From positions 800,001-864,000 of the forward strand of contig CM000434.1 of NCBI GenBank assembly GCA_000165345.1: a DNA stretch of 64,000 nucleotides. The letters run 5' to 3'. Positions 2,202-50,595 of the stretch are shown here, one piece after another; within the stretch, counting starts at the first letter, position 1; each line of letters starts with the position of its first letter. Under the pieces are notes generated by a model. That model ran no database searches, was not told the DNA's origin, and saw nothing but the letters and a program-made list of their open reading frames with translations. Position numbers and translations under genes: made by a program.

Positions 2202-2816
2202 TTAATACCACAACTAATGAGCACTAATTTATTAGTAATAGTTCCTGAAAAGGAAATGTAGGAGTAGCAAGAAAGAGAAAAATTGGAAATAGACTTTAAG
2301 AACTATTTACATTCAAGTATTCCCACACACATACACACACAAAGTTACTTATTTTTGTTGTTTTCCTTTCTTTTAAGCCACTTTTAATTTACATGCGAAA
2401 GATCTTGAGACGTTAACTTGTTATAAGCTTGACAAGAAACCACACCAATCAAAATTAATTAATTCAAAGATTATAAATTAAATTATTCTTACAGATTTCT
2501 ATTTAATTATCCAAATTTTAATGATTTTTATTTTTTCTATAAATTTTTTTTAATATTAAGTTACCCGTGATTTTTTTCTAGTTGATATGCCCTAAAAACA
2601 CACTTTCCCGCCAAAACATTCGGTACTTAAAAAAAACAAGCCGGTATACAAAAAAAAAAATAACTTTGGAGGAAGAGAGAAGAAATAATAATAATTCAGA
2701 CATAAGTTTTATGAGCTTTGTGTTTTTGGTAAATTTTAAGAAAAGATTTTACTTAAGATACTGACCATAGTGTTATTATTAGCTTTGCTGTATTTATTGG
2801 TATCGGTAATTAGGTG

Positions 2817-5342: not shown

Positions 5343-6224
5343 TTATTCATTTGAATGAAACGGAGAGACGGATCTAGAAAGTGATCTAGTTCTACCGCCC
5401 GTGATAACTTTTTTATCTAATGGTACCTTTGTATCAGATAGAGGAGGGGAAGGAGAAGGAGTGGGAGATCTGGGCTGATAAGAGTCCTGGTTAAAACCAG
5501 ACTGGAGTTTAAGGTCGTTATTTAAAGTATTCAAAAGTCTCTCTTCAATCTTCTTCTTAATGGAATAGATCTTTGATAATTTACTATCCCATTCAAGTTT
5601 TTTGATCTGTTGATATGCAAGAGGAACAGGAATACTTTCTAAATTTAATAAGGTATCGTTAATATCATGAAGATTAGAATTAGTCTCTAGATTTGATGGA
5701 ATATATTTCTGAATTTCAAAGTCGGAAGAAATCTCAATCTTTTCACCACTTTCTAAAGTAAGATATCGTTTTTCTATAAGATCTGCAGCAGAGCTTTCAT
5801 TTTGAAATTCTATTATAATAGAATTGGAGTTAATATTAGGATCTTGTCTCTTAATACTAACAATTTGTCCATATTTCTGAAAAATGGATGTAATTCTCAA
5901 GTCTGACAAAGAACTTGGTAAATTTTTTACCGATATTTCTCTATTTGAGACAATTCTTTTTTGCTCAGATTTTTGAATTTGTATTGGTGGCAGTACCGTT
6001 ATTGACATAGGTACCCCAAGTAACGTTGAACCATTAAATCCAATACTTTTTGTGACACCATTTGAAGATTTAAATGAGATTTGGCAGAATCTTTGGTCAC
6101 TTTCTGGGTAATTATGGAATTCAATATCAATAATTTCATCCTCAAGTTCATTGAATATATTAAGTACCGACTTTTTATTTGCAAGTGGGGATAAGTTTCT
6201 GATAAATACGCAATTTTCTGTCAT
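5343..6224 (-). CDS. RNA-binding protein with two RRM-like domains
   Basis: The ATG at 6224-6222 was verified. RNP-like segments include CVFIRNLSP...SIGF and ISVKNLPSSLSDLRITSIFQKYGQIVSIKRQ. The protein is 293 aa with a Ser/Pro-rich C-terminus. Confidence 0.6.
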   Translation of the reverse strand: MTENCVFIRNLSPLANKKSVLNIFNELEDEIIDIEFHNYPESDQRFCQISFKSSNGVTKSIGFNGSTLLGVPMSITVLPPIQIQKSEQKRIVSNREISVKNLPSSLSDLRITSIFQKYGQIVSIKRQDPNINSNSIIIEFQNESSAADLIEKRYLTLESGEKIEISSDFEIQKYIPSNLETNSNLHDINDTLLNLESIPVPLAYQQIKKLEWDSKLSKIYSIKKKIEERLLNTLNNDLKLQSGFNQDSYQPRSPTPSPSPPLSDTKVPLDKKVITGGRTRSLSRSVSPFHSNE

Positions 6225-6430
6225 ATTAATGTGAGATTTTGAAGCAAAGTTTTTCTAAGAATGTATAATTGGAAGAATTAGAAGGAGTTCCTGTCGTCCT
6301 TAAGTCAATTCAGATGGAGATCCTTGATTAATTATATATAAATAATTTTATGTGGTTTATAAGAGAAAGAGATGTTGGATTAAAAAAAAATGGGATTTTT
6401 TTTTTCCAAGTCAAATTGCTGTGCATCATT

Positions 6431-6490
6431 GCCTATACCGGCGTATTACGAATTACCGGTATAGGAAAATAAATAAATGCCGGTATAGGC
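6431..6490. promoter_or_regulatory. Inverted-repeat CCGGTATAGG element with an extra third copy, in a bidirectional promoter
   Basis: GCCTATACCGG-cgtattacgaatta-CCGGTATAGG-aaaataaataaatg-CCGGTATAGGC forms a palindromic pair plus a third direct copy, with an embedded TTACG core. It lies between the divergent genes 5343..6224(-) and 6549..7118(+). Confidence 0.5.
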
Positions 6491-6548
6491 AAAAATATTA
6501 AAAAAAAAAAATAATAAAAAATATATAAAAAAGAAAATAAGTGACTAA

Positions 6549-7118
6549 ATGAATGATTTTGATATTATTGAGTCGCAACTTGCGAAGATTAATGAACTCA
6601 GAAATCAGGTAGAAGGTATTGAAAAAACCAACTTTAATAATGTAAACAACAAAACTATTATAGATAAGAATTTAGAGATTTCAATAAGTTCAGAAAGTAC
6701 TCTTCAAGAAAGATATAAATCTATAAATCTTCTTTATCTTGTTGGCCAGAAAAAGCTGATTAGGGAGATAATCAATACTCAAAGTCCATCAAATCTTACA
6801 AATTTGATTAAAAGAATGATTAATACTCCTCCAATTGGTGATTCTATAGAAAAGATGGCTTGTAATAGAAATACTTGGATTGACGAATCAATTTGGCAGC
6901 TTTCTAAAGTTAGTAGCGAAGATAATTCTGATAATACTGCTTCTAGTGATATTAATGATAAAGATAAGAACTTATCAGAGATTCTAGAGTTATTGAATCA
7001 TTATAAATACCACTTTGACTCTTCACTACAACTTAGTGGAGCTATAAATCTATCAATTGGGATGCTTAATAATTCCAATAAAGAAGAATCCATTAACTCT
7101 TCCTCCTCCCCTAAGTAG
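6549..7118 (+). CDS. Hypothetical protein, Asn/Ser-rich, 189 aa
   Basis: The ATG at 6549 was verified and the ORF is clean. No recognisable domain. It is transcribed divergently from the RRM gene across a palindromic CCGGTATAGG spacer. Confidence 0.45.
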   Translation: MNDFDIIESQLAKINELRNQVEGIEKTNFNNVNNKTIIDKNLEISISSESTLQERYKSINLLYLVGQKKLIREIINTQSPSNLTNLIKRMINTPPIGDSIEKMACNRNTWIDESIWQLSKVSSEDNSDNTASSDINDKDKNLSEILELLNHYKYHFDSSLQLSGAINLSIGMLNNSNKEESINSSSSPK

Positions 7119-8316: not shown

Positions 8317-8353
8317 TTTGGCGCGAGCGCCATGATGCATAATGCCGGTATAG
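8317..8353. promoter_or_regulatory. E2F-like box TTTGGCGCGAGCGCCATG plus a CCGGTATAG motif, about 215 bp upstream of Ebp2
   Basis: A GC-rich palindromic GGCGC...GCGCC lies in an otherwise roughly 25% GC spacer. CCGGTATAG is at 8345-8353. Confidence 0.5.
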
Positions 8354-9473
8354 ATACCTTTTAAGTGTAAAATAGGCAAGAAAAAAAAACAAAAATTTGT
8401 ATTTAATAAATAAATATTTATATATATATATATATATGTATATATAAATATACACAAAATAAATAAGGGATTAAATATAATTCTTGAAATTTCCTCTATT
8501 TCCCCTTTATTATTTTATACTTTTAAATACCAATTTCTCAAACTGGAAAATATTGGTTTAAATTTAGGTGAATAAATCACTAATTCTCACTTTATTGAAT
8601 AGGAATTAGATGATATTTGATTTTTTTATAGATTTATTAAGGAAAAATATTATTAAACATCTTCCTTTGAAATAGAAATGAATAGCAGATATTTTCAGTG
8701 TATTGTCTAAAGTTTCTTAATATCGTTTGGATATTTACGAATTTGAAATATTATTATTCTGAAAATGTGGTTATAACAATATTTTGAATCCAAATTCTGA
8801 ATAGTTTTTCTATAAGAAACAAAATCTTTGTTAACCAAAGAGGTTTTTCTTTTTTAATGTAAATGCAAAGAAGAAAAATAGTAATAAAGAAACGATTAAA
8901 GCTGAAATGTTGAACAATAGTTAATATCTTTGATATAATTCATTTTGTAATTATATTCAACAAATTCAGTATCTTGCTTTTAAGTATTCAACGAATATCT
9001 TGTAATGTTACCGACGTAATAAGTATTGATTGCTTATTAATAATGATTAATAAAGTGCTTCCAAACAATTTTTTTTAATCGTTTAACAATATTATTGAAT
9101 GAGTAGTTGATTTAACTGTTTGTATTGAAAAATCTTTAGATGGTAATTCCTCTACTCTTATTATTTTGTTTATATTATTAAAAACTCAAATTACATCTTT
9201 TCCCATTGTTTGACAGAAATTTTTCAATGGAATTCAAGACCATATAATATTAAATAACGTAGGTGTTTCCATTTCTTAGGTTTGAATTTTCCTTTAAACA
9301 ATATTACTACTGAAGTATTATTTTCTTTTCCAATGAATTTAAGCGTTTCATGTTGGATCTTGATCCAATAATTTACATATTTATTATCATTACGATATCT
9401 GATAATTGTGCATTAGTGTTAATAACACTCAAGCTATTCTTGTAAGCAGTATTATGTTTCGAAATAGTCTCAC

Positions 9474-11816
9474 TTAGTTTCCTGACACATTTTGGTCTTG
9501 AAACTGAGTAGTAGTTTGAGCCTTTAGTTGATCTTGTACTTTAGACTTTGAATCCGATTGAGTCACTGTCCTTTGAGAATCTGTTGTTACACCTTGGGCA
9601 CTGTTATTAGTAGTGGTAGTAGTAGAGGTATTAGTAGCAGTTTTAGTGGTAGTTGTACCAGTATTAGCACCAGTAGTAGTGGTAGTAGCAGTGGTAGCAC
9701 CAGTATTAGCAGTAGTAGTAGAAGTATAGCTTGAATCAATTTGTGCCATATACTCTTCTTTGTATGTAACCTTTGAATCTTTGTCTGTGGTTACAATAGT
9801 GACTGTTGCTGTTCTTGTAGTTTCTCCAGTTTTTGTGCCAGTTGTAACATTCTTTAATGATAAATCACTAACATATCCTGAAATATCCATGCAGGCATTA
9901 ACATTAGTAGATGAATCGGTAGTGGTAGTTTTATTAGTTTGAGTAGTGGTAGCTTGACCAGCAGTAGCTTGACCAGCAGTAGCTTGGCCAGTAGCAACTT
10001 GGCCGGTAGTAGTTTGACCAGTAGTAGCTTGAAAAGTGGTAGCTTGGCTGGCGGTACTTTGAGAAGCAGTAGTTTGGGAAGCAGTAGATTGAGAAGTAAT
10101 AGTTTGAGAAGTAGTAGTTTGAGAAGTGGTAGCTTGACCGGCAGTAGTTTGAGTAGTGAAAGTAGAAGGAACAGTAGTAGTAGTAGTCATCCTACTACAA
10201 TCTTGGAAAACTTGATCAACAGTAGTAACTGTTGATCCATCAGCTTTAGTGACAAAAGTTTCTGTTCTTGTAGTTACACCATCTACATTACCTGATGCAA
10301 ATCTTGTGGTTGTTTTTGTAACAGTTTCACCTGATTGAGTATTTGTTGAAACTGTCTGGTCAAATGTTTCTTCAGTCTTTGATGTCTGCTTTCCATCAAC
10401 AGAATAAGTTTCTCTTGTAACAGTTCCTTTGTAACTTTTTTCTGTAGTTCCAGTTTGTACAGGAGTAGTACTAGTAGTAGTAACACACTTTGTTCTGTCA
10501 GTATTTGTTTGTTCCTTCTTTGAAGTATAAGTACCATCAGTTTGGTAAGTTTCAGTAATTTTGATTTGTGTCTTTCCACTCTGAGTTGTTTCATATTTTA
10601 CACCACATTTACCATAAGTTGTTTGACTAGGTGTTTGAACTGCTCCATAGTAAACCTGAGCACCGTTGAAATCTTGATCAGCCTGCTGATTGTTCTGTTC
10701 AGTTTGTTTTTGTTTTTGTAATTGTTTTCTTGCTTGGTCTTGGCCTTGAATGGATGTTTCATATCCTGCACCTCTCATTGTTTCCTGGCATTTTGTCTGT
10801 TTACTATTGACTCCAGAATAACCATTATTTGCCACAGATGTGTCAGTTGTTTCTTTTGATACTTCAATATCTATTTGTCTAGAGGTAATTGAACCATTGC
10901 TAAATGTTTCAGTCATTGTTGTAGTAGTTTCAGTTTTTGTTGGTGCTTGATAAACAAAAGTCATTGTATTATCTGTTGTATCAAAGTAACAAACCTGACT
11001 TGTAACTGCTTCAGACTGAGCAGTTCCTGCTTTACAAGTGGTAGCAGAAGCAGTCATATTTGATGTACTTTTTTTGGCACTTTCACTAGAAGGTTTCACT
11101 TCTTGGGTAGTAACAGTCTTTGTAGTTTTTACTTTCATTGTTGTACTTGTTACATCTTCAGTACTAGTCTTATTAACAGTCTTTTGAATTTTCATACCAG
11201 AATCGAAAACCGTTTCTGTATTTACTGTTGAAGTGTTAGTTACTGTATTATTCTCACCTTGTTTTTGAGTACCTGTTGTTGCAGTTTTCTTAAATGTAGT
11301 AGTAGTAGTAGTAGCACCAGTTGTGAAACCAGAAGTATCAGTAGTACCAGTAGTGCCAGTAGTACCAGTAGTAGTGGTAGTGGTGGTAGTATTAGTATCA
11401 GTAGTGGTACCAGTAGCACCAGTAGTGGTAGTGGTGGTAGTAGTAGTAGTACCAGTAGTGCCAGTAGCACCAGTAGCACCAGTAGCACCAGTAGTAGTTC
11501 TGGTAGTAGTTCCAGTAGTGTTAGTAGAGCCAGTAACACCAGCAGCACCAGTAGTAGTGGTCTCTGGAGCTGTAAAAGTAACCTTACTGTAAGATTTAAT
11601 GCTACCAGAAACTGAAACTGAAGATGCAGAATCACACACTCCTGTTGTAGTTGTAGTTGTAGTCGTAGTTGTAACGTCACCAGATGTTTCAGTACAGACC
11701 TTCTTTGATTGTTCTTCCTTTGCTACGTCAGAAGGACGCTTCTTAGTTTGTTCGCTTGTCATATTTGTTTCGCAGTTGGTTTTATATTGATTTGGTGATG
11801 AATTTTCTACTTCCAT
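9474..11816 (-). CDS. Thr/Gln-rich mucin-like protein, 780 aa, with internal tandem repeats
   Basis: The ATG at 11816-11814 was verified. The protein contains poly-Thr runs and about 14 degenerate hexapeptide repeats of the form T[AT]SQ[AST]T (ATAGQ, ATTSQ) encoded by 18-bp tandem units at about 9939-10200. TTGATGATG-type repeats lie at about 11290-11580. No obvious N-terminal signal peptide follows the called ATG. Confidence 0.65.
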   Translation of the reverse strand: MEVENSSPNQYKTNCETNMTSEQTKKRPSDVAKEEQSKKVCTETSGDVTTTTTTTTTTGVCDSASSVSVSGSIKSYSKVTFTAPETTTTGAAGVTGSTNTTGTTTRTTTGATGATGATGTTGTTTTTTTTTTGATGTTTDTNTTTTTTTTGTTGTTGTTDTSGFTTGATTTTTTFKKTATTGTQKQGENNTVTNTSTVNTETVFDSGMKIQKTVNKTSTEDVTSTTMKVKTTKTVTTQEVKPSSESAKKSTSNMTASATTCKAGTAQSEAVTSQVCYFDTTDNTMTFVYQAPTKTETTTTMTETFSNGSITSRQIDIEVSKETTDTSVANNGYSGVNSKQTKCQETMRGAGYETSIQGQDQARKQLQKQKQTEQNNQQADQDFNGAQVYYGAVQTPSQTTYGKCGVKYETTQSGKTQIKITETYQTDGTYTSKKEQTNTDRTKCVTTTSTTPVQTGTTEKSYKGTVTRETYSVDGKQTSKTEETFDQTVSTNTQSGETVTKTTTRFASGNVDGVTTRTETFVTKADGSTVTTVDQVFQDCSRMTTTTTVPSTFTTQTTAGQATTSQTTTSQTITSQSTASQTTASQSTASQATTFQATTGQTTTGQVATGQATAGQATAGQATTTQTNKTTTTDSSTNVNACMDISGYVSDLSLKNVTTGTKTGETTRTATVTIVTTDKDSKVTYKEEYMAQIDSSYTSTTTANTGATTATTTTTGANTGTTTTKTATNTSTTTTTNNSAQGVTTDSQRTVTQSDSKSKVQDQLKAQTTTQFQDQNVSGN
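9939..10200 (-). repeat. 18-bp tandem coding repeats, about 14 degenerate copies, inside the mucin-like gene
   Basis: Recurring GGTAGCTTGACCAGCAGTAGCTTGACC... units encode the T[AT]SQ[AST]T hexapeptide array on the minus strand. Confidence 0.75.
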
Positions 11817-12204: not shown

Positions 12205-12290
12205 TGCATGCGCATGTACTTGCATTATCCACATGCGCATGAATTGCATACTTTCATATATCGGAGTTTACTAACAAAACTGACGTAATA
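12205..12290. promoter_or_regulatory. Composite module (TGCATGCGCATG ... TTATCCACATGCGCATG ... TGACGTAA) upstream of the mucin gene
   Basis: A tandem GCATGCGCATG/CCACATG cluster lies at 12205-12251. A CRE-like TGACGTAA is at 12281-12288. The module sits about 400 bp 5' of ATG 11816. Confidence 0.45.
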
Positions 12291-13160: not shown

Positions 13161-13593
13161 TTTTTTTTAATATTATTAATATTATCTATTTATTTATCTA
13201 TTATTCAAATACACTTAATCCAATCAATTCTTCTTATGTAAAGCAAAATCGTTAATTATTATAATGATGAATTAGTAATAATTTCGAGATCCTTTTTATC
13301 TTGGATAAAATCTTTATTCTTTTTTAATTAATTAATTTCGTATCTGGAATTCTAAATCCATATACTTAATTAAACTTAAATTGCCAATAAAAAAAAAAAA
13401 ATAAAGAGAACTCTCCCTATATTATCTTAATTGAACTCTTGTCATGCAATCTCTTGCCTCACTTTTTTTCTCATGATTTTAGACTATACGCATTTTATCT
13501 TGCAAACTTATTTTTTCTTTACATGTTTTTATATTTCATGATTTTGCACTAGACTTTATTTTAATGTCTTTCTCTATTATTTATTAGATTCCC

Positions 13594-13617
13594 TGGCGCC
13601 AAAAGCATCCCGCCAGT
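13594..13617. promoter_or_regulatory. E2F-like TGGCGCCAAAA plus TCCCGCC, upstream of gene 12429..13160
   Basis: CCCTGGCGCCAAAAGCATCCCGCCAG sits about 435 bp 5' of ATG 13160. Confidence 0.45.
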
Positions 13618-14186
13618 TGCACTTTATTGTCAAAAATATATAAACAAAAATTACGTAATTTATTAAGAATACTATCTATTTACCATGCCTTTGTTTTGAA
13701 TGTGAATAAAGAACGATAGATTTTTCGATATTTCTAATATTGAATCCCCAAAGCTCACTAAAAAGTTTGTTAGTTAATATTGATAAGGGAAAATTGTAGA
13801 GTTAATATATTGTAATTTAGGAATCTGTAGATAAATGATCTGTTAAGATTATAAGGGGTGATGGGGGTAAAAAAAGTATATTTCCAAGTATTTAGATAAT
13901 TTAGCTTTATTCTTGTTGTATGTGTGTGATAGTTTTAGTATTAGTTACTGTATGTGTGAGCAACTATTTGATAAGCAATTTAATAATAACAAATAGAAAT
14001 GGATATTGAATATATATATATATAGGGTAAAGAAAGCTTGATTTCATAGAATTGTGATATTTCTAATTATCTTCTTTTTTACTCAATGTCTAACTTTTCT
14101 TTAAAATTACCAGTCATTTTTTTTTATTAATTTTAACATTACCCTTATATTCTTAACAGATCTTTACTACTAGAGCAAAAAACTTA

Positions 14187-14801
14187 CTATATTTCAGCAT
14201 GCTGAGCCAATAGAGGTGGAATCTCACCCCAAGTACCAAGTGATGTAACTATAAATAATCGAGTACAAAATGAAGCAGTATATTCTCTAAGTCTATTTAA
14301 AATAACAAAGAGTGAATTAAAACCATTAATTGGAATATCAAAAGGCATATTCCTTAGGATTAAAATACAATCAGCTTTTGGCCAATTACCACCAGAATTT
14401 AATATACTATAAATCTCTCTATATGTAACTTCTTTTTCATTAGAATTATGCTTTTGTTCTACAATTCTTTGTATTTTATTTAAAAAATCTTTTGAAGAAT
14501 CACCACTTGAAAGAAAACGTAAATTAGCAGGAATTTCGTCTTCATTATTCAATAAAACTGTTAATTTACTTTCAACAATTCCATTTGGTTCAAAAATAGT
14601 AACATATTCCACTCCTAATTGTTTAAAAATACGACAAGCTTTATATAAAAGATATAATACACCATTTTCAATCACTTCTGATCCTCTAAATACAATTACC
14701 ATATGTTTTGGAACTTTCTTTACTTTCTCTAAATTAGCTTGATCTTCTATATTTTCAAACCCTAGAACTTTCTGTAATAATTTATTTAAGTAAATAATCA
14801 A
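14187..14801 (-). CDS. Possible NUS1/Nogo-B-receptor-like protein (cis-prenyltransferase accessory subunit). The 5' end is unresolved.
   Basis: The ORF-track start at 14801 is a TTG, so the true N-terminus is either the internal ATG (MVIVFRGSE) or an upstream exon. There is weak pattern similarity to the NUS1 C-terminal half (LLYKACRIFKQLGVEYVTIFEPNG; ADCILILRNMPFDIPINGF). Confidence 0.3.
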   Translation of the reverse strand: MIIYLNKLLQKVLGFENIEDQANLEKVKKVPKHMVIVFRGSEVIENGVLYLLYKACRIFKQLGVEYVTIFEPNGIVESKLTVLLNNEDEIPANLRFLSSGDSSKDFLNKIQRIVEQKHNSNEKEVTYREIYSILNSGGNWPKADCILILRNMPFDIPINGFNSLFVILNRLREYTASFCTRLFIVTSLGTWGEIPPLLAQHAEI

Positions 14802-15537
14802 TAATAAGTTTATTTTGTTTGTATTAATAATATGAGTTAGATGATGGTTATTATTTGTTCAAGTAAATCAAGAATCAAATCAATATGAAAGATGGGAATA
14901 ATATTATAAAACTGAAAGAATTCTTCAAATAAGGATTAATATAAGGAAATCACTTTTTGAAAATTGTATTAATTTATACTATTAATCTTTTTTTCTCTCA
15001 CCCCCTTCTTTTATACCTCCTATCCATCCTTATAACTTTCCTCTTCATTTAATTTACTTCATTATTTCCTGTTTTCAGTTTTATTTCTGTTTCCCCTCTC
15101 TTTCTATCAATAATATTATTTGATTTTAACCATCTCACAATTATTAATCAACATAAATATTGATAATATATTATATCCGGTCTAATTAACTTACCTTAAT
15201 AAATGAAAAGATGAATGTAATAGCAAAAACTATCTCAAACAATATGTATTGAATTGTATTTACTATTAAAAGTAACATTTCAAATATTATTTAAAGATTA
15301 GAAAAAAAAAAATGCTCCGATTTATTATTATTCTTGTAATAAATAAAAAATATAGAAAAATAAAATACTGAAATCTGTGTTTTATAATGATCAGTTTCAA
15401 ATTAATTTTTTTTAACAAATAAATATTGCAAATATTTACTTTCAATACAAATAAACACAAATATACTTCCACTCTACCTCTATCCTTTACTTCTTTCTTT
15501 TTTTCTAAATAAATCATTTCTTGACAATTCCTGCAAA

Positions 15538-15589
15538 TTCCCGCCAAAAAAGGTATCTACAATTGCCCCTCTCACATTTGGCGCGCGAA
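15538..15589. promoter_or_regulatory. Paired E2F-like boxes (TTCCCGCCAAAAAAGG and TTTGGCGCGCGAA) in the RBMX2 / NUS1-like intergenic region
   Basis: There are two GC-rich boxes within 50 bp, about 300 bp 5' of ATG 15892. Confidence 0.45.
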
Positions 15590-15891
15590 TCATGCGTTTT
15601 TAAAAATATATATATTCATTTTGATTAAATTAGAAAAAGCAAGAAGAAGAAGAAAAAATAACGATAAATTCAATAAAATTAAGAATGAATAAATAATAAA
15701 CTAATAACATAAAAGTATCAATTAGTAGTAATCTTTCAGATTTATTTATTTATTTTTTTGTTTAAGTTAGAGCTTAATTTCTTTTTTCTTTTTTTTTTTC
15801 TCCAGAAAATGAATGAATGGAATGGAGTAGAAAAATTATTTAATTTTTTTTGAGATTATGTGGTAATATTAATTTAAATAACAAACAAAAA

Positions 15892-16570
15892 ATGTACAAT
15901 ATAAATTCATATAAAGGAAAAAAAGATATTTCTTATAAAAGAAGAAATACAATTAATGAAATAAATAGTAGAGAAGAAATATATAGTAACAATTATTACA
16001 ATACTAGTAATAATAATTATACAAATACAAATTCGTGGCATAATAATGTAAGTTTTTTGAATAAATGAACTTAAATAGAATTGATTTTTAATTAATATAT
16101 TAATTTAGTATAAGAATTCATCATATATATATATTTCAGGATTAGATTTAAGACTTACAGAAGGTGATATTGCAATCATATTTTCTCAATGGGGTGAACC
16201 TATTGATATTAATTTAATTAGAGATAAAAAGTTGGGAATATCAAAAGGTTACTGTTTTTTATGTTATGAAGATCAAAAAAGTACAATATTGGCTGTAGAT
16301 AATGCAAATGATATGATATTACTAGGAAAACATATAAAAGTTGATCATGTTAGAGATTATAAACCAAATTGTGATGGAGAATATATATTTACAGGTGCTG
16401 AAGGAAGTGGAATAGGAGTTTTTGGAGTTACAAAAGACATTCAAACACGGTTTAAAACAGAGTTGGATATATTAAATCTTAATTTTAGTAATAAAATAAG
16501 GGGAAGATCAGATAATATAGAAAAGAAAAGGAGAGCAAAATCTTTAAGCAGATCTTTATCATTAGAATGA
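15892..16570 (+). CDS. RBMX2/Snu17(Ist3)-like U2 snRNP RRM protein. Two exons: join(15892..16047,16109..16570), with a 61-nt intron.
   Basis: ORF 15850 begins with TTG; the first ATG is 15892. The donor is GTAAGT at 16048-16053 and the acceptor is TTTAG at 16104-16108. The spliced product reads ...NSWHNN|[81 protein letters not shown]. This aligns nearly residue-for-residue with human RBMX2 ([73 protein letters not shown]...RVDHV). The C-terminal tail is RS-like. Confidence 0.8.
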
Positions 16571-16810
16571 TTACATAAAACAAAAAGAAGGAGTGAAATA
16601 TATTGTTAATACAAACATTAATATTAGTAATTTTTGTTTGTATTGCAAAATTAATTGAATTTAATTACTTCAGGTTGTTGTTCTTTTCTTTTGTATTCTT
16701 CTATTTGCAATAATATTACATAATTTACATACTTTTATTGGATTATTATGAACAACCCTAAAAAATATTTAATGTTTATAATATTTCATATTAAGTAATC
16801 ATTTTTGCAA

Positions 16811-16833
16811 GCATGCATGCATGCATGCATGCA
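16811..16833. repeat. (GCAT)6 / (CATG)n palindromic microsatellite in a convergent 3' spacer
   Basis: GCATGCATGCATGCATGCATGCA lies between the RBMX2 stop (16570) and the stop of gene 16865..17759 (16865). It iterates the GCATGCA core that is otherwise found in promoters. Confidence 0.7.
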
Positions 16834-16864
16834 AAAATTAGGCCAAATATTAATTAAATAATAC

Positions 16865-17759
16865 CTACATTCTTTTATAATTCCGGTTTCCATGTAAATC
16901 TCTAAGATGAAAGTCAAGAGGAAGTAATGATTTACCAAGCTTTAGTGTATTGAATTTATCTTCAAAAAGTTCTTTATATTTACTCCTTTTTAAAGAATTA
17001 ATAATAACAGTATTTCCAGATTCAAGATATTGTATAAATAAACCCATAGAAGGGGTAGTAAATATTAAACTATGTAAATCTGAAGCATCACTTCTTAGAA
17101 TACCAAATTTAATTAATAAATTCAATAGAAAATCCCCACTGAAGTTGGTTTGATGACTTTGACAAATTTTATATTGACTTTTCCATTGAATACATATCAA
17201 AGATAAATAATCCAAAAGATGCTTATTATTTATACTAATTGTCTTATAATTTTGAAAAATGTTTTCTTTAATTAAGTTTAAAATATTTTGTAATAAAATG
17301 TTATTATTTTCATTATTAAAAAGACATTCCAAAAAACATCCATTTAGTCGATTTTGACATTCTAAATTTGAATACTTTTCTTGAATTCTTTGTTTTAACA
17401 CTCTTAATATATCACTCTTTAAACTATAACCTATAGATGACGTAATATTTTTATATGATAAAGATCTTGGTACCTTTAATTTTCTTAATTCACCATCTTT
17501 AACAAGCATTTCCAAATCTTATTAATTCAAATATTAATCATTATATAAATATTATTTAAATTCTATTTATTTTTAACTTACCTTGAATTGGTAATCTATT
17601 TCCATCATTTCCTAATATTTGATGTTCTAATACTATTGGAGGGTCAATAATGCCAATACAATCTTTTCTTAATGAAAAGAATATATTTAATGTTTCTGAA
17701 TATTCATAATTTTCTAAGAATTCTATGATTTTCTCGTCTTTATCATTTTCTTCCATCAT
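16865..17759 (-). CDS. Hypothetical protein. Two exons: complement(join(16865..17517,17582..17759)), with a 64-nt intron.
   Basis: The upstream ORF (ATG 17759) ends ...GNRLPIQ|G immediately before a GTAAGT donor (rc of 17576-17581). The downstream ORF starts at TTG and is preceded by D and an AG acceptor (rc of 17518-17519). Phase 1 is preserved, giving ...PIQ-D-LEMLVKDGELRK. No recognised domain. Confidence 0.55.
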
Positions 17760-18172
17760 TTTGAATAATATTTCAAGAATAGATATTATGGATATTATTA
17801 TTCACTTAATTAATAATATTATTCGAGTGAATTTCAAATATTACATTTCAGTCTTCTTTTCAAAAATTCTACATCTTTTCTCTTCATACTTTCTTTAATA
17901 TGTAATTTTTATATTTTAAATTCAAATAACTTAATTTTTTTTTCCTTTAAAAAGACAAGCTTGTAGTCATAATATATCAACTAAATCCAAATAAAGAAAC
18001 AAATTTTCTAAAAAAAAATTAAAATGCTCTAATATACCCTATTTTCACTCAATTCCTATTCACACAATTAATATTTTTATAATAATACTCTAATTTTTTA
18101 TAACTTTACTTATTTATTTATTAAAAAAAAAAAAGTCCGTTACCTTTTCATGCACTATAAATATCTCAACAA

Positions 18173-18189
18173 TTTGGCGCGCGCGCCAA
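18173..18189. promoter_or_regulatory. Palindromic E2F-like TTTGGCGCGCGCGCCAA in a bidirectional promoter
   Basis: It lies between divergent genes starting at 17759(-) and 18446(+). Confidence 0.5.
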
Positions 18190-18445
18190 CGACGGTACCA
18201 AATGAATGTAAAATGCATGTAAATAGATTTATACATAATAATAATAATAAAAAAATCAAATAAATAAGGAACAAAATTTAAGTAAGGTCTTAGTAATTAA
18301 TATCATCAAACATATAAATTAGTTTTCAAGATTTTGAATTATTTTCCTTAAAATTATTTGTTACACAGATAAATCTGGAATTGTAAACAAGTATAAATAC
18401 AACAATTGAATTTAAATTATATTAATTAATCACATCTTAAAAAAA

Positions 18446-24440: not shown

Positions 24441-24879
24441 TACTTAATTAAATAAGGCTTCATATAACAAATTACCAGTGTTAAATCATATGTTATCAAA
24501 TAAACTTGTTTCTTTTTAATCTATTAGATGTTGGTTTCATATTAAATTTCCAATCTTTGTCTGCAATATTTAGCTCTTTTAGCTCTTGTCTTTTTATGAT
24601 TAATTAAGATGAAAAATAATTCAGAGTTCTCTACTTCTTTGCCTCCAAACTTGTAAATTCCTAGAAAAAAATCAAAAACTTCCAGGCAAATGCACTGAAA
24701 AGGATTTTTTTTCCTTAATAAAATTCTCAAATTATTGGAAGTTTCGCCGGTATAGGAAATTTTTGAAATTGCATGCATGTGGCATCATATGCAATGGTTG
24801 ATTTATCTGCTGAACTCATTAAAAAAAAAAAAAAAGAAAAATGAAAATGGGGTTGAAATTTCCAAATTTTTTAAATTAT

Positions 24880-28171: not shown

Positions 28172-28280
28172 TTTTCCTTAGTTTTTATAGCTTAAATTAT
28201 CATGAATTATCTTTCGTATATTATTAACTTAATATTTTTATTATTGCTGTTATTATTTTAAATTTAACACGTAATTAATA

Positions 28281-28350
28281 ATTACATGTGGATGACCGGT
28301 ATATGCAAGTAAAAATAAAAATTGCATGCAAAAAACGGTATGTGGAAATA
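28281..28350. promoter_or_regulatory. Composite module CATGTGGAT-GACCGGTATATGCAAG ... TTGCATGCA ... CGGTATGTGGAA upstream of Kae1
   Basis: Contains CCACATG (rc), CCGGTATATGCAA, TGCATGCA and a second (C)GGTATGTGGAA. It lies about 420-480 bp 5' of ATG 28767. Confidence 0.5.
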
Positions 28351-28766
28351 TGAATGCATTGTAAATATGAGTAAAAATTAAAGTTACGTGTATTATTAAT
28401 TTAATTTTTTGAATATATTTAAAAAATCCTGATGATTGCGATTTTTTTTTGCTTTAAATTAATAGAACAAGTTAAAAGCAGGAATATCAAGTGAGTACAA
28501 AACAAAGTTTATATTTAGTTAAAATGAAAATCATAAATGGTAAAATCCAAAATTACAAAAACATTTTTTTCTCCGTAAAAATTAAAATAATAACATCAAT
28601 TTAATGATATGAAAAATCTTGTCAAATAAAAGTAAAAATGACATTAACCATATATAAAATATTACCGCTAAAAAAGCTTAATTAAAAGTTAATGCTATTT
28701 TTATGTTTTGAATTAAATAAAGATTAAAGATTTGAAAAGATTTCTCAAAATTGAAATATCAAATTC

Positions 28767-32153: not shown

Positions 32154-32163
32154 GTGGAAATAC

Positions 32164-32234
32164 AGGAGCTACTGGGAATCGAACCCAGGCTACCGGAATC
32201 AAAATCCGGGGTCCTACCGCTAGACTATAGCTCC
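32164..32234 (-). tRNA. tRNA-Gln (anticodon UUG)
   Basis: Reverse complement: GGAGCTATAGTCTAGCGGTAGGACCCCGGATTTTGATTCCGGTAGCCTGGGTTCGATTCCCAGTAGCTCC. It folds as a cloverleaf with a 7-bp acceptor stem GGAGCTA/TAGCTCC, D-stem GTCT/GGAC, anticodon stem CCGGA/TCCGG and loop TTTTGAT (anticodon TTG). The T-arm is CTGGG-TTCGATT-CCCAG (GGTTCGATTCC box B). A T9 run lies 10 nt downstream on the same strand. Confidence 0.85.
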
Positions 32235-32487
32235 TTACGCCGCTATGGTGATTTTATAAAGAGTTAATCTATACAAATCAAAATATTAAGCTTAATAAAA
32301 CTCAGATAAATTTTTGTTCAAGAAGGAAATTAACAAGGCATTCTATTTAAAGATTAATAAATAGATTATTCAATTAAATATTTTGGAAAATAAACGAAGT
32401 TTAAAAAAATTTTTGATGAACTATTATGGAAGAAAATGATCAATGTTAAGTTTTGAGAGATAAAAGTATTAAGAAATAAATAAATAT

Positions 32488-35498: not shown

Positions 35499-35600
35499 AT
35501 TGGCGCCATAACTCCCCTTAGAAATTGAGAATATTTTTATTATAGGGGGAAAAATGGCAAAGTAAAAAAAAAAAAAAAAGTTATATACCGGTAATGACGT
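35499..35600. promoter_or_regulatory. Bidirectional promoter elements: E2F-like ATTGGCGCCATAAC plus ACCGGTAATGACGTG
   Basis: It lies between myotubularin (ATG 35220, -) and Derlin (ATG 35676, +). Confidence 0.45.
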
Positions 35601-48025: not shown

Positions 48026-48385
48026 TTGGCGCCGCCACATGGTATCGATTAATGAATTAAATTGATTGCAAACGGAAAAAATTAAGATGGATGGAAGCCA
48101 AATAATAAACAAAAGCAAACTTGAAAATTTATTAATTTGATTTTGATCTTCTCTTTTCAATATTCCCTATCATACAAATCACTCATAATCACTAATAATT
48201 ATATTAGCTCTTGTATTTTTTTTTTTGTAATATATTCAAATTTATTCAAAATTCTGAAACTCCATCCTTAAACTTATCTATTCTGATTTGTAGTTTGTCC
48301 ACATGAACTTGCAAATGTTTGCAAGTTGCATGCAATTACCTGCATTACACGTAATTGGTGAAATTCAATACCGGTATATAGGCGG
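48026..48385. promoter_or_regulatory. Bidirectional promoter with E2F-like ATTGGCGCCGCCACA plus a composite module (TCCACATG, TTGCATGCAATTACCTGCATTACACGTAATTGG, ATACCGGTATATAGGCGGGG)
   Basis: It lies between the 670-aa ANK gene (ATG 47486, -) and the PDI-like gene (ATG 48645, +). Confidence 0.5.
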
Positions 48386-48644
48386 GGCCCCACAAAATAA
48401 TGGATTTACATGTATTAGCATACGTAAGAAATAATATTAACGAAAAAATGGGATATTTCGTCGGTGATTAGAGTGGAATACGTATATAAGATATGGACGT
48501 AAGGTAGGAGAAATATTATGTTGAAGATATTTTAAGTTTTAATGTTATAGAATTATTAATCAGTGATATTTGGTGTGATTTTGTTTTTGAGATTTCAATT
48601 AAGGAAAAAAGTAAATAATCAAAAGATTGATAAGAGATAAAGAT

Positions 48645-50372: not shown

Positions 50373-50543
50373 ACTTCTAATTCATTCTTTCTTTTTTTGA
50401 AGATTTCTTTTAATTTAATAACTTTCTATCTAATTACAAACAAAATCATAAATTTAATGTTAAAATTTATATGCCTAAAACTAGTGGCTCATGTATGTAT
50501 ATTATATTTATATATTTTTTATCCCACCCCGGTACCTGGTTAA

Positions 50544-50595
50544 GTGCAGCACGTGCATGCGCATGTTTGCGCGGGGATTGGGCGGGAAAATTTGC
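50544..50595. promoter_or_regulatory. GC-rich island GTGCAGCACGTGCATGCGCATGTTTGCGCGGGGATTGGGCGGGAAAATTTGC between two convergent 3' ends
   Basis: It contains CACGTG, GCATGCGCATG and an E2F-like GGGCGGGAAAA, yet it lies between the PDI-like stop (50372) and the giant gene's stop (50601), where no promoter is expected. Confidence 0.4.

What the first reader, a model, noticed from the sequence alone, without database searches (positions are those of the whole stretch)
6431..6490. Perfect inverted repeat CCTATACCGG ... CCGGTATAGG with a third direct copy in a bidirectional promoter
A 10-bp palindromic pair separated by 14 bp, plus a third CCGGTATAGGC 14 bp later, is unlikely by chance in an approximately 80% AT spacer. 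It looks like a dimeric transcription-factor site. The same CCGGTATAG core reappears upstream of Ebp2 (8345), at 24746, and in the composite modules. This is the cleanest instance from which to define the motif.
Basis: seen in the sequence. Interest (0 to 1): 0.5.

Follow-up and report, generated by a model that had tools for sequence, protein, structure and literature searches.

The report
Conserved ACCGGTA promoter motif in Cryptosporidium
The three repeats are real and are copies of a short palindromic DNA word (core TACCGGTA) that marks gene-control regions across the parasite genus Cryptosporidium, is most likely a docking site for an unidentified regulatory protein, and is missing from the published Cryptosporidium motif lists I could read.

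Summary
The window is Cryptosporidium parvum. CCGGTATAGG occurs exactly at 6432-6441(-), 6456-6465(+), 6480-6489(+) and 24747(+), which is 4 copies against 0.02 expected. They lie in the 324-bp spacer between two divergent genes.

The functional unit is not the 10-bp arm pair. It is a shorter element, T-R-CCGG-T-A-Y, often the full palindrome TACCGGTA. The window has 12 such sites, all non-coding, in 9 of 19 promoter-containing spacers.

- CCGGTATA is the most enriched non-repetitive 8-mer family in the window's non-coding DNA after TGCATGCA.
- Among all 102 6-mers of the same base composition, CCGGTA ranks first in non-coding DNA, both here and in about 225 kb from five other Cryptosporidium species.
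- Ten of 12 sites are kept at the aligned position in C. ubiquitum, against a 12% background (p = 3e-8).
- Two CCGG cores are the only invariant multi-base blocks in the five-species alignment of this spacer, which includes the gastric species C. andersoni.

Best reading: a clustered binding site for a sequence-specific, probably dimeric, DNA-binding protein. The factor is unknown. None of the C. parvum motif catalogues I could read lists the element. The same palindrome is a predicted promoter motif in oomycetes. Genome-wide statistics and any functional test are still missing.

The parts
6432..6441 (-). Site 1: CCGGTATAGG on the minus strand. The extended arm TTGCCTATACCGGC covers 6429-6442. 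The site points towards the RRM gene.
   Evidence: The CCGG core is invariant in the 5-species alignment A1. It is kept in C. ubiquitum at the aligned position.
6456..6465 (+). Site 2: CCGGTATAGG, preceded by TA, so the full palindrome TACCGGTA lies at 6454-6461.
   Evidence: The CCGG core is invariant in A1. The 18-bp spacing between the CCGG centres of sites 1 and 2 is the same in parvum, ubiquitum and felis.
6480..6489 (+). Site 3: CCGGTATAGG. The extended arm GCCGGTATAGGCAA covers 6479-6492 and forms a 14-nt perfect inverted repeat with site 1.
   Evidence: Kept as CCGGTATAAT in C. ubiquitum.
5343..6224 (-). Left flanking gene: an RRM-domain protein of 293 aa. Its C. hominis TU502 orthologue is named 'U4/U6 snRNA-associated splicing factor' by the source.
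6549..7118 (+). Right flanking gene: a 189-aa protein with no Pfam match. The sites lie 60-117 bp upstream of its ATG.
   Evidence: A syntenic gene of 169-188 aa is called in ubiquitum, felis, andersoni and ryanae.
2641..2648 (+). CCGGTATA, 176 bp upstream of the eIF2B-epsilon ATG, in the divergent spacer shared with a gamma-tubulin-complex (GCP) gene. A decayed older site, tCGGTACTTA, lies at 2617-2626.
   Evidence: C. felis and C. andersoni have ATACCGGTAC in this spacer.
8345..8354 (+). CCGGTATAGA upstream of the Ebp2 gene, next to an E2F-like GGCGCGAGCGCC and an ATGATGCAT.
   Evidence: Kept in C. ubiquitum, and C. felis has a site 198 bp upstream of Ebp2.
24747..24756 (+). CCGGTATAGG in the tandem spacer between a 629-aa gene (133 bp after its stop codon) and the 1399-aa importin-like gene.
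   Evidence: Kept in C. ubiquitum.
28296..28305 (+). CCGGTATATG inside a composite module (ACACGTAATT, CATGTGGA, CCGGTATATGCAA, TGCATGCA). The variant ACGGTAT lies at 28335-28341.
   Evidence: A site is present in this RNase PH/Kae1 spacer in all five other-species comparisons available.
35584..35593 (-). TATACCGGTA (palindrome TACCGGTA at 35586-35593) in the divergent myotubularin/Der1 spacer, 83 bp upstream of the Der1 ATG.
   Evidence: C. ubiquitum differs by one base within a fully conserved block (TATACCGTTAATGACGTG). Sites are present in andersoni and ryanae.
39735..39742 (.). Palindrome TACCGGTA (CACATACCGGTACTA) in the spacer upstream of a WD40 gene.
39803..39814 (+). TACCGGTATATG (10-bp palindrome ATACCGGTAT), 8 bp downstream of a CATGTGGA motif.
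48369..48378 (+). TACCGGTATA in the divergent ankyrin-670/thioredoxin-PDI spacer, within a composite module.
58253..58264 (+). TACCGGTATGTG in the tandem spacer, 84 bp after the stop codon of a 407-aa gene and 660 bp upstream of the 2330-aa ankyrin gene, within a composite module.

Best explanation
Each copy is a binding site on double-stranded DNA for one sequence-specific DNA-binding protein of Cryptosporidium. The consensus is T-R-CCGG-T-A-Y and the ideal form is the palindrome TACCGGTA.

The two-fold symmetry suggests the protein binds as a dimer. Most C. parvum sites have one strong half (CGGTAT) and one weaker half.

The 60-mer at 6431-6490 is a cluster of three such sites in a 324-bp divergent promoter. 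Site 1 faces the RRM gene and sites 2 and 3 face the 189-aa gene. This arrangement should give high or cooperative occupancy and contribute to transcription of one or both genes.

Elsewhere the element sits alone, next to E2F-like or TGCAT motifs, or inside roughly 100-bp composite modules with CATGTGGA, ACACGTAA and TGCATGCA. That points to combinatorial promoter control.

Shown here: non-random occurrence, restriction to non-coding DNA, palindromic core, genus-wide conservation with site turnover.

Inferred: protein binding, dimer, effect on transcription.

Unknown: the factor. A Myb-like domain or an orphan ApiAP2 domain are candidates from general knowledge only.
For: 1. Over-representation.
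- Exact 10-mer: 4 against 0.02 expected.
- 8-mer CCGGTATA: 10 against 0.23 expected by shuffles, and against 0.72 by a third-order Markov model of the non-coding DNA.
- It ranks directly after the TGCATGCA family and above the E2F words.

2. Location.
- All 12 strong sites are non-coding, although about 64% of the window is ORF.
- They lie in 4 of 8 divergent and 5 of 11 tandem spacers.

3. Same-composition control.
- CCGGTA ranks first of 102 6-mers in non-coding DNA in C. parvum (21 against a mean of 1.4).
- It also ranks first, independently, in loci from five other species (48 against a mean of 6.2).
- In coding DNA it is average.

4. Conservation.
- 10 of 12 sites are kept at the aligned position in C. 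ubiquitum, against 12% of background 6-mers (p = 3e-8).
- The two CCGG cores are the only invariant multi-base blocks in the 5-species alignment of this spacer.
- C. andersoni has TTACCGGTAA and TATACCGGTAT there, and its only other CCGGTA in 20.9 kb lies in the eIF2B-epsilon spacer.
- The RNase PH/Kae1 spacer has a site in every species examined.

5. Turnover typical of factor sites. Neighbouring sites swap which one is intact (parvum against felis). A decayed site is replaced 16 bp away.

6. Symmetry and orientation. Six of 12 strong C. parvum sites and all three C. andersoni sites are full TACCGGTA palindromes. Sites occur in both orientations relative to genes.
Against: - There is no direct evidence of protein binding or of any effect on transcription.
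- Only 64 kb of C. parvum, plus 9.7 kb of flank, was available. The flank gave one non-coding and one coding site, so genome-wide prevalence is unknown.
- Deep conservation depends on the spacer. Three parvum/ubiquitum sites (IBN/u628, Ank670/PDI, Ank2330/u407) have no counterpart in C. ryanae, C. felis, C. andersoni or C. serpentis.
- In five of six tandem spacers the site lies in the first third after the upstream gene's stop codon. For four of these (window sites 24747, 28296, 58255 and C. ubiquitum L001:3753) that is 85-150 bp after the stop; the sites upstream of the WD40 gene lie 240-470 bp after it. All are 450-980 bp from the next ATG. That is unusual for a simple proximal promoter element.
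- Published motif screens, including MEME on ATAC-seq peaks, did not report it.
- The adjacent genes show no common function.
Confidence: 0.75

Rival explanations
1. The same protein-bound element acts architecturally rather than as a classical activator or repressor site. It would behave like a general regulatory factor such as yeast Reb1: excluding nucleosomes, insulating neighbouring genes in a compact genome, or blocking read-through from the upstream gene. Alternatively it could act as a bidirectional start region for antisense or long non-coding RNAs.
For: - In tandem spacers the site usually lies just after the upstream gene's stop codon: 133 bp at 24747, 125 bp at 28296, 84 bp at 58255, and 100-148 bp in C. 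ubiquitum. It is then far from the next ATG.
- It is present in about half of the promoter-containing spacers, next to genes with no common function.
- C. parvum antisense RNAs are reported to start mostly at gene 3' ends from apparently bidirectional promoters (PMC7840661).
Against: - The positional bias is weak. My own estimate from the, 68 distances is 5 of 6 tandem spacers, with a chance probability of roughly 0.02.
- It fails for the Ebp2 site.
- In divergent spacers the sites lie 44-220 bp from start codons, as ordinary promoter elements do.
- No transcript-end or chromatin data were available.
Confidence: 0.15
2. The inverted repeats act at the RNA level, as a stable hairpin in a 5' UTR or a non-coding transcript.
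For: The 71-nt stretch folds into a 16-bp stem with z = -6.2 on the plus strand and -5.4 on the minus strand. The C. ubiquitum orthologue gives z = -7.3.
Against: - The pairing partner is not conserved. It is sites 1 and 3 in parvum, sites 1 and 2 in ubiquitum, and the outer sites in felis.
- C. andersoni is not significant (z = -1.7).
- Conservation is confined to the CCGG cores, with no compensatory changes.
- Most other occurrences are single sites with no partner.
- No Rfam family matches.
Confidence: 0.04
3. The three copies are a neutral by-product of local duplication, and the other copies are chance or compositional.
For: Sites 2 and 3 lie 24 bp apart in direct orientation within AT-rich, low-complexity sequence.
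Against: - repeat finder reports no direct-repeat family beyond the motif itself.
- The sites are retained in five species while the flanking sequence diverges.
- Enrichment survives the shuffle, Markov and same-composition controls.
- Conservation gives p = 3e-8.
Confidence: 0.02
4. The element is a core-promoter or start-site-selecting element recognised by the basal transcription machinery, rather than by a gene-specific factor.
For: It is present in about half of the promoter-containing spacers. Some sites lie 25-120 bp from start codons.
Against: - The distance to the ATG ranges from 25 to about 980 bp.
- Copy number per spacer ranges from 1 to 3.
- Both orientations occur.
- Half of the promoters lack the element.
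Confidence: 0.04

Closest known systems
Oomycete promoter motif M94 TACCGGTA (Phytophthora infestans, PMC3597505), also reported as streme-5 ATACCGGTAT in Plasmopara halstedii and motif-9 GTACCGGTA of Seidl et al. (PMC10031896)
   Same: The 8-bp palindrome is identical. It was found by over-representation in promoters. The P. infestans authors list M94 among their 'high-confidence' motifs. No binding factor is named in the passages I read.
   Different: Oomycetes are a different lineage (stramenopiles, against alveolates). Their motif is associated with hyphal and germinated-cyst stage genes and with effector genes. Nothing here shows a shared factor, so the match may be coincidence. C. parvum sites are mostly half-palindromic (RCCGGTAT).
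Cryptosporidium AP2_1 motif TGCATGCA and E2F motif TTGGCGCC (PMC3734150, PMC4117751, PMC12246861)
   Same: They are short palindromic words enriched in C. parvum upstream regions. They are often multi-copy and sit in the same spacers and modules as the ACCGGTA element.
   Different: The sequence is different. Those motifs have known binders (ApiAP2 domains and E2F/DP). The ACCGGTA element is absent from the 25-motif catalogue and from the rows of the 2025 review's motif table shown.
Yeast Reb1 site TTACCCGG, DMP1 site CCCGTATGT and c-Myb site YAACGG (Myb-type DNA-binding domains; recalled from general knowledge, not tested)
   Same: The sequences resemble each other. TTACCGGTA differs from TTACCCGG by one base. 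CCGGTATGT (58255) differs from CCCGTATGT by one base. The C. ubiquitum Der1 variant reads TAACGG. Reb1 is also a promoter and terminator-proximal general factor.
   Different: No exact match to any of these consensus sequences. No Myb protein is linked to the element. C. parvum has 16 annotated Myb-domain proteins and only Myb-M has been validated (PMC12246861).
Grainyhead/CP2 site AACCGGTT (general knowledge)
   Same: A palindromic ACCGGT core bound by a dimer.
   Different: The flanks here are TA...TA, not AA...TT. I did not test whether Cryptosporidium has a CP2-family protein.

Membership tests
Published C. parvum upstream motif families (AP2_1, AP2_2, G-box, E2F, GAGA, CAAT-box, Unknown sets 1-2, motifs 14, 21, 22, 25) | Match to one of the 25 published consensus patterns | tested here: not met
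   Table 1 of PMC3734150, and the rows of Table 3 of PMC12246861 shown, contain no CCGG or GGTAT pattern. Text and supplement searches for CCGGTA, ACCGGT and TACCGG found nothing.
Transcription-factor binding site (generic cis-regulatory element) | Statistical over-representation in non-coding, upstream DNA | tested here: met
   for this window and for about 225 kb from other species. Not tested genome-wide.
Transcription-factor binding site (generic cis-regulatory element) | Conservation in orthologous non-coding regions above the background rate | tested here: met
   Ten of 12 sites against a 12% background (p = 3e-8). CCGG cores invariant in the 5-species alignment.
Transcription-factor binding site (generic cis-regulatory element) | Specific binding by a nuclear protein, and an effect of mutation on expression | not testable with these tools
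   Needs a gel shift, pull-down, DAP-seq or a reporter assay.
Oomycete M94/streme-5 TACCGGTA motif | The palindrome TACCGGTA enriched in promoters | tested here: met
   TACCGGTA occurs 6 times in non-coding and 0 times in coding DNA in the window. Across all loci the counts are 14 and 2.
Oomycete M94/streme-5 TACCGGTA motif | The same (orthologous) binding factor | not testable with these tools
   No factor is named for either lineage in the texts read.
Reb1/Myb-type general regulatory factor site | Consensus TTACCCGG | tested here: not met
   The sites read T[TA]ACCGGTA, with one C fewer. The Reb1 consensus is recalled from general knowledge.
Reb1/Myb-type general regulatory factor site | Nucleosome-free region or transcript ends centred on the site | not testable with these tools
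   No chromatin or transcript-end data were available.
Structured RNA element (hairpin) | A conserved pairing scheme supported by compensatory changes | tested here: not met
   The pairing partners differ between species and there is no covariation. No Rfam match.

The most novel reading that the evidence does not exclude
TACCGGTA is the recognition word of an ancient transcription factor shared by alveolates and stramenopiles. On this reading the same palindrome is a promoter motif in Phytophthora and Plasmopara because both lineages inherited the factor. In Cryptosporidium it would be a third major promoter code, next to E2F and ApiAP2, marking a large share of promoters.
Probability: 0.12. 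Interest if true: 0.7.

Novelty: new member of a known kind. Interest (0 to 1): 0.5.

Why it matters
Cryptosporidium is a leading cause of childhood diarrhoea, and its gene control is poorly understood. The known promoter vocabulary is essentially E2F, a few ApiAP2 motifs and several orphan words.

In this region the ACCGGTA element is as enriched as the best-known motif, and it is conserved from intestinal to gastric species. It would therefore point to an unrecognised regulator.

It also gives a concrete bait for finding that regulator: the natural three-site 60-mer. A defined element could also help in designing promoters for transgenic parasites. The identical palindrome in oomycete promoters raises a testable question about a shared, ancient factor.

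Tried and rejected
- **Literature.** I searched the full text and held supplements of the C. parvum motif papers: PMC1779779, PMC3734150, PMC4117751, bioRxiv 2025.01.17.633476, PMC12246861, PMC7840661 and PMC11078545. None mentions the motif. Bankier et al. 2003 (chromosome 6 analysis) is not held, so earlier mention there cannot be excluded. Free-text searches for the bare sequence mostly returned primers.
- **Non-coding RNA.** Rfam finds only the tRNA-Gln, so the long spacers show no known RNA gene whose promoter the element could be.
- **Ribosome-biogenesis regulon.** The Ebp2 site suggested this idea. The adjacent genes are functionally mixed: eIF2B-epsilon, an RRM protein, Ebp2, an importin-like protein, Kae1, Der1, myotubularin, a WD40 protein, a thioredoxin/PDI and ankyrin proteins.
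- **Absence from convergent (3'-3') spacers.** Only the tRNA-internal CCGGTA and a weak ccCCGGTAcc occur there. Convergent spacers total only 2.4 kb, so this is not significant.
- **Deep conservation of every site.** This failed. Outside three spacers (RRM/u189, eIF2B-epsilon/GCP, RNase PH/Kae1), presence in distant species is patchy.
- **Orientation rule relative to the nearest gene.** None found.
- **Expression clusters.** I did not map the genes to cgd identifiers, so co-expression was not checked.

Full report
**Identity of the window.**
- The ORF at 5343-6224 (minus strand) is 100% identical to a Cryptosporidium parvum RRM-domain protein. It has orthologues in C. hominis, C. tyzzeri, C. 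ubiquitum, C. canis, C. felis, C. ryanae, C. xiaoi and C. andersoni.
- The last gene of the window maps to record CP029785.1, a 1.31-Mb C. parvum chromosome. My calculation places the window at about 797-861 kb of that record.
- G+C is about 29%.
- The genes are compact and mostly intron-poor. The neighbours of the finding are eIF2B-epsilon, the RRM protein, a 189-aa protein without Pfam match, and Ebp2.

**The observation.**
- CCTATACCGG lies at 6432-6441 and CCGGTATAGG at 6456-6465, with 14 bp between. CCGGTATAGGC follows at 6480-6490 after another 14 bp.
- The exact 10-mer occurs four times in the window (the fourth at 24747), against 0.02 expected.
- With one mismatch there are seven matches against 0.58 expected.
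- The 8-mer CCGGTATA occurs ten times against 0.23 expected.
- The longest inverted repeat actually joins sites 1 and 3. It is 14 nt and perfect, 6429-6442 with 6479-6492.
- The spacer is 73% AT, not 80%.
- It is a true divergent spacer of 324 bp between the RRM gene and the 189-aa gene. That arrangement is syntenic in C. ubiquitum, C. felis, C. andersoni and C. ryanae.

**What the unit is.**
- I aligned all occurrences.
- Six of the twelve strong window sites are the full palindrome TACCGGTA: 6454, 35586, 39735, 39803, 48369 and 58253.
- Two more sites that the 8-mer search missed read CCGGTATGTG (39734 minus strand, 58255).
- A weaker variant, ACGGTAT, lies at 28335.
- There are two flavours across species: CCGGTAT(A/G) and CCGGTACT(T)A.

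**Is it more than chance?**
- *Location.* All twelve strong sites are non-coding, although about 64% of the window is ORF.
- *Markov control.* Against a third-order Markov model trained on the non-coding DNA itself, CCGGTATA (10 against 0.72) ranks directly after the TGCATGCA family once homopolymer and microsatellite words are set aside. It ranks above the E2F words.
- *Same-composition control.* Of the 102 strand-collapsed 6-mers made of two C, two G, one A and one T, CCGGTA ranks first in non-coding DNA in C. parvum (21 against a mean of 1.4, sd 2.8). It also ranks first, independently, in about 225 kb from C. ubiquitum, C. felis, C. andersoni, C. serpentis and C. ryanae (48 against a mean of 6.2, sd 6.0). 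GCATGC, the core of the known AP2_1 motif, is second in both sets. In coding DNA, CCGGTA is average.
- *Distribution.* Sites occur in 4 of 8 divergent and 5 of 11 tandem spacers.
- *Out of sample.* An extra 9.7 kb of C. parvum flank gave one non-coding site and one coding TACCGGTA. That is too little to judge.

**Conservation.**
- I aligned nine site-bearing spacers and three control spacers pairwise between C. parvum and C. ubiquitum. Overall identity was 45-67%.
- Ten of twelve sites keep CCGGTA at the aligned position, against 12% of all 6-mers in those spacers (binomial p = 3e-8).
- The two exceptions are instructive.
  - At the Der1 promoter, a fully conserved block differs by one base inside the core (TATACCGGTAATGACGTG against TATACCGTTAATGACGTG). 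This leaves ACGGTATA on the other strand.
  - At the eIF2B-epsilon promoter, the element present in C. felis and C. andersoni (ATACCGGTAC...) has decayed to tCGGTACTTA in C. parvum, and a new CCGGTATA lies 16 bp away.
- In the five-species alignment of the RRM/189-aa spacer, the only invariant multi-base blocks are the two CCGG cores.
  - C. andersoni, a distant gastric species, has TTACCGGTAA and TATACCGGTAT there. The only other CCGGTA in its 20.9-kb locus is the eIF2B-epsilon spacer site.
  - C. felis has three sites, and C. ryanae has GCCGGC and ACCGGC variants.
- The 18-bp spacing between the CCGG centres of sites 1 and 2 is the same in parvum, ubiquitum and felis.
- The RNase PH/Kae1 spacer carries a site in every species examined. 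C. parvum and C. felis differ in which of two neighbouring sites is intact.
- Other sites (24747, 48371, 58255) are shared only with C. ubiquitum. Deep conservation is therefore specific to some spacers, and turnover is common.

**Context.**
- Four spacers carry roughly 100-bp composite modules that combine CATGTGGA, ACACGTAA(T), TGCATGCA and TACCGGTAT: 28256-28400, 39696-39830, 48286-48400 and 58171-58280.
- The module upstream of Kae1 is conserved in C. ubiquitum and C. felis.
- The 'GCCGGTATAGG' type sites lie next to E2F-like or ATGATGCA words (8318/8345, 2605/2641, 6420s).
- The adjacent genes have no common function.
- Orientation relative to the nearest gene is mixed.
- In five of six tandem spacers the site lies in the first third after the upstream gene's stop codon, and 450-980 bp before the next ATG. 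The exception is the Ebp2 site.

**Mechanism.**
- The element shows a palindromic core, occurrence in both orientations, one to three copies per spacer, restriction to non-coding DNA, genus-wide retention and site turnover. This is the signature of a binding site for a sequence-specific, probably dimeric, DNA-binding protein.
- The 60-mer is a cluster of three such sites in a divergent promoter. I put this at about 0.75.
- Within that class I cannot separate a classical activator or repressor site from an architectural, insulator or roadblock role, or from a bidirectional start region for antisense RNA. The position just after stop codons in tandem spacers gives that rival about 0.15. C. parvum antisense RNAs are reported to start mostly at gene 3' ends (PMC7840661).
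- An RNA hairpin is unlikely. The stems are strong (z = -5 to -7), but the pairing partner changes between species, C. andersoni is not significant, and there is no covariation. Rfam finds nothing but the tRNA.
- Neutral duplication is excluded by the conservation data.

**Comparison with what is known.**
- The element matches none of the 25 published C. parvum upstream motifs (PMC3734150 Table 1).
- It matches none of the rows of the 2025 review's motif table shown (PMC12246861 Table 3).
- It is not among the ApiAP2 array motifs named in the text of PMC4117751 (TGCAT, CACACA, G-box).
- It is not among the top ATAC-seq peak motifs (E2F1, poly-T, E2F6).
- Bankier et al. 2003 could not be read.
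- The exact palindrome is a predicted promoter motif in oomycetes: M94 TACCGGTA in Phytophthora infestans (PMC3597505), and streme-5 ATACCGGTAT in Plasmopara halstedii, which those authors equate with motif-9 GTACCGGTA of Seidl et al. (PMC10031896). No factor is named in what I read.
- Resemblances to Myb-type sites (Reb1 TTACCCGG, DMP1 CCCGTATGT, c-Myb YAACGG) and to the Grainyhead site AACCGGTT come from general knowledge. They are one-base-off leads, not matches.

**Verdict.**
- The element is best filed as a new member of a known kind: a previously unlisted, genus-conserved promoter motif with an unknown binder.
- The main limits are the small amount of C. parvum sequence available here and the absence of any binding or expression data.

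Noticed in passing
window 12228, 12307, 28285, 39706, 39787, 48298, 58221, 60335, 60636: CATGTGGA is strongly enriched in non-coding DNA (9 against 0.76 expected). Five of the nine copies lie within 11-72 bp of an ACCGGTA site, as part of the composite modules. It is conserved in the Kae1 module in C. ubiquitum, C. felis and C. ryanae. It resembles none of the 25 published motifs exactly.
   Followed up: partly
window 28267, 28384(-), 48347, 58197, 60646; also ACGTCATTA at 35594-35602(-): ACACGTAA(T) recurs in the same modules (5 against 0.39 expected) and is conserved in C. ubiquitum and C. felis. It has an ACGT core, so it may be a separate factor site.
   Followed up: partly
window 12205-12245 and 50553-50566: The palindrome-like word TGCATGCGCATG / CATGCGCA occurs 6 times by strand count against 0.18 expected. 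There are two copies 25 bp apart in the spacer upstream of the mucin-like gene (9474-11816). One copy lies in the convergent PDI/ankyrin spacer, next to GGCGGGAA.
   Followed up: no
window 50525-50537; L008 11880-11895: CCCCGGTACCTGG lies in a convergent (3'-3') spacer and is conserved between C. parvum and C. ubiquitum. It lacks the T-R prefix of the promoter element, so its role is unclear.
   Followed up: no
window 16808-16832: A short (GCAT)n run (AGCATGCATGCATGCATGCATGCAA) creates five overlapping copies of the AP2_1 core just downstream of the stop codon of a 214-aa ORF.
   Followed up: no
window 24747, 28296, 58255; L004 4778, 8270; L008 19651; L001 3753: In tandem gene pairs the ACCGGTA site or module usually lies 85-150 bp after the upstream gene's stop codon, and 450-980 bp before the next start codon. 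Possible explanations are long 5' UTRs, unannotated transcripts, antisense promoters or a boundary function.
   Followed up: partly
window 9474-11816 (-): A 780-aa Thr-rich, mucin-like ORF with a locally raised G+C of 36%. Its orthologues differ greatly in length between species (633-856 aa).
   Followed up: no
window 13161-18445: A stretch of about 5 kb with very low G+C (23%) and only short ORFs, with spacers of 1-2 kb. This is unusually gene-poor for this genome. Orthologous regions carry small called genes without Pfam matches.
   Followed up: no
window 32163-32235 (-): A tRNA-Gln (TTG) gene lies in the convergent Pus10/myotubularin spacer. Its position is conserved in C. ubiquitum, C. felis, C. 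andersoni and C. ryanae. It contains an internal CCGGTA that must be excluded from motif counts.
   Followed up: yes
L006 19100-20823 (C. andersoni): C. andersoni has an aminotransferase gene inserted between the u270 and WD40 orthologues. It is absent from the C. parvum and C. ubiquitum loci. ACCGGTA-type sites flank it on both sides.
   Followed up: no
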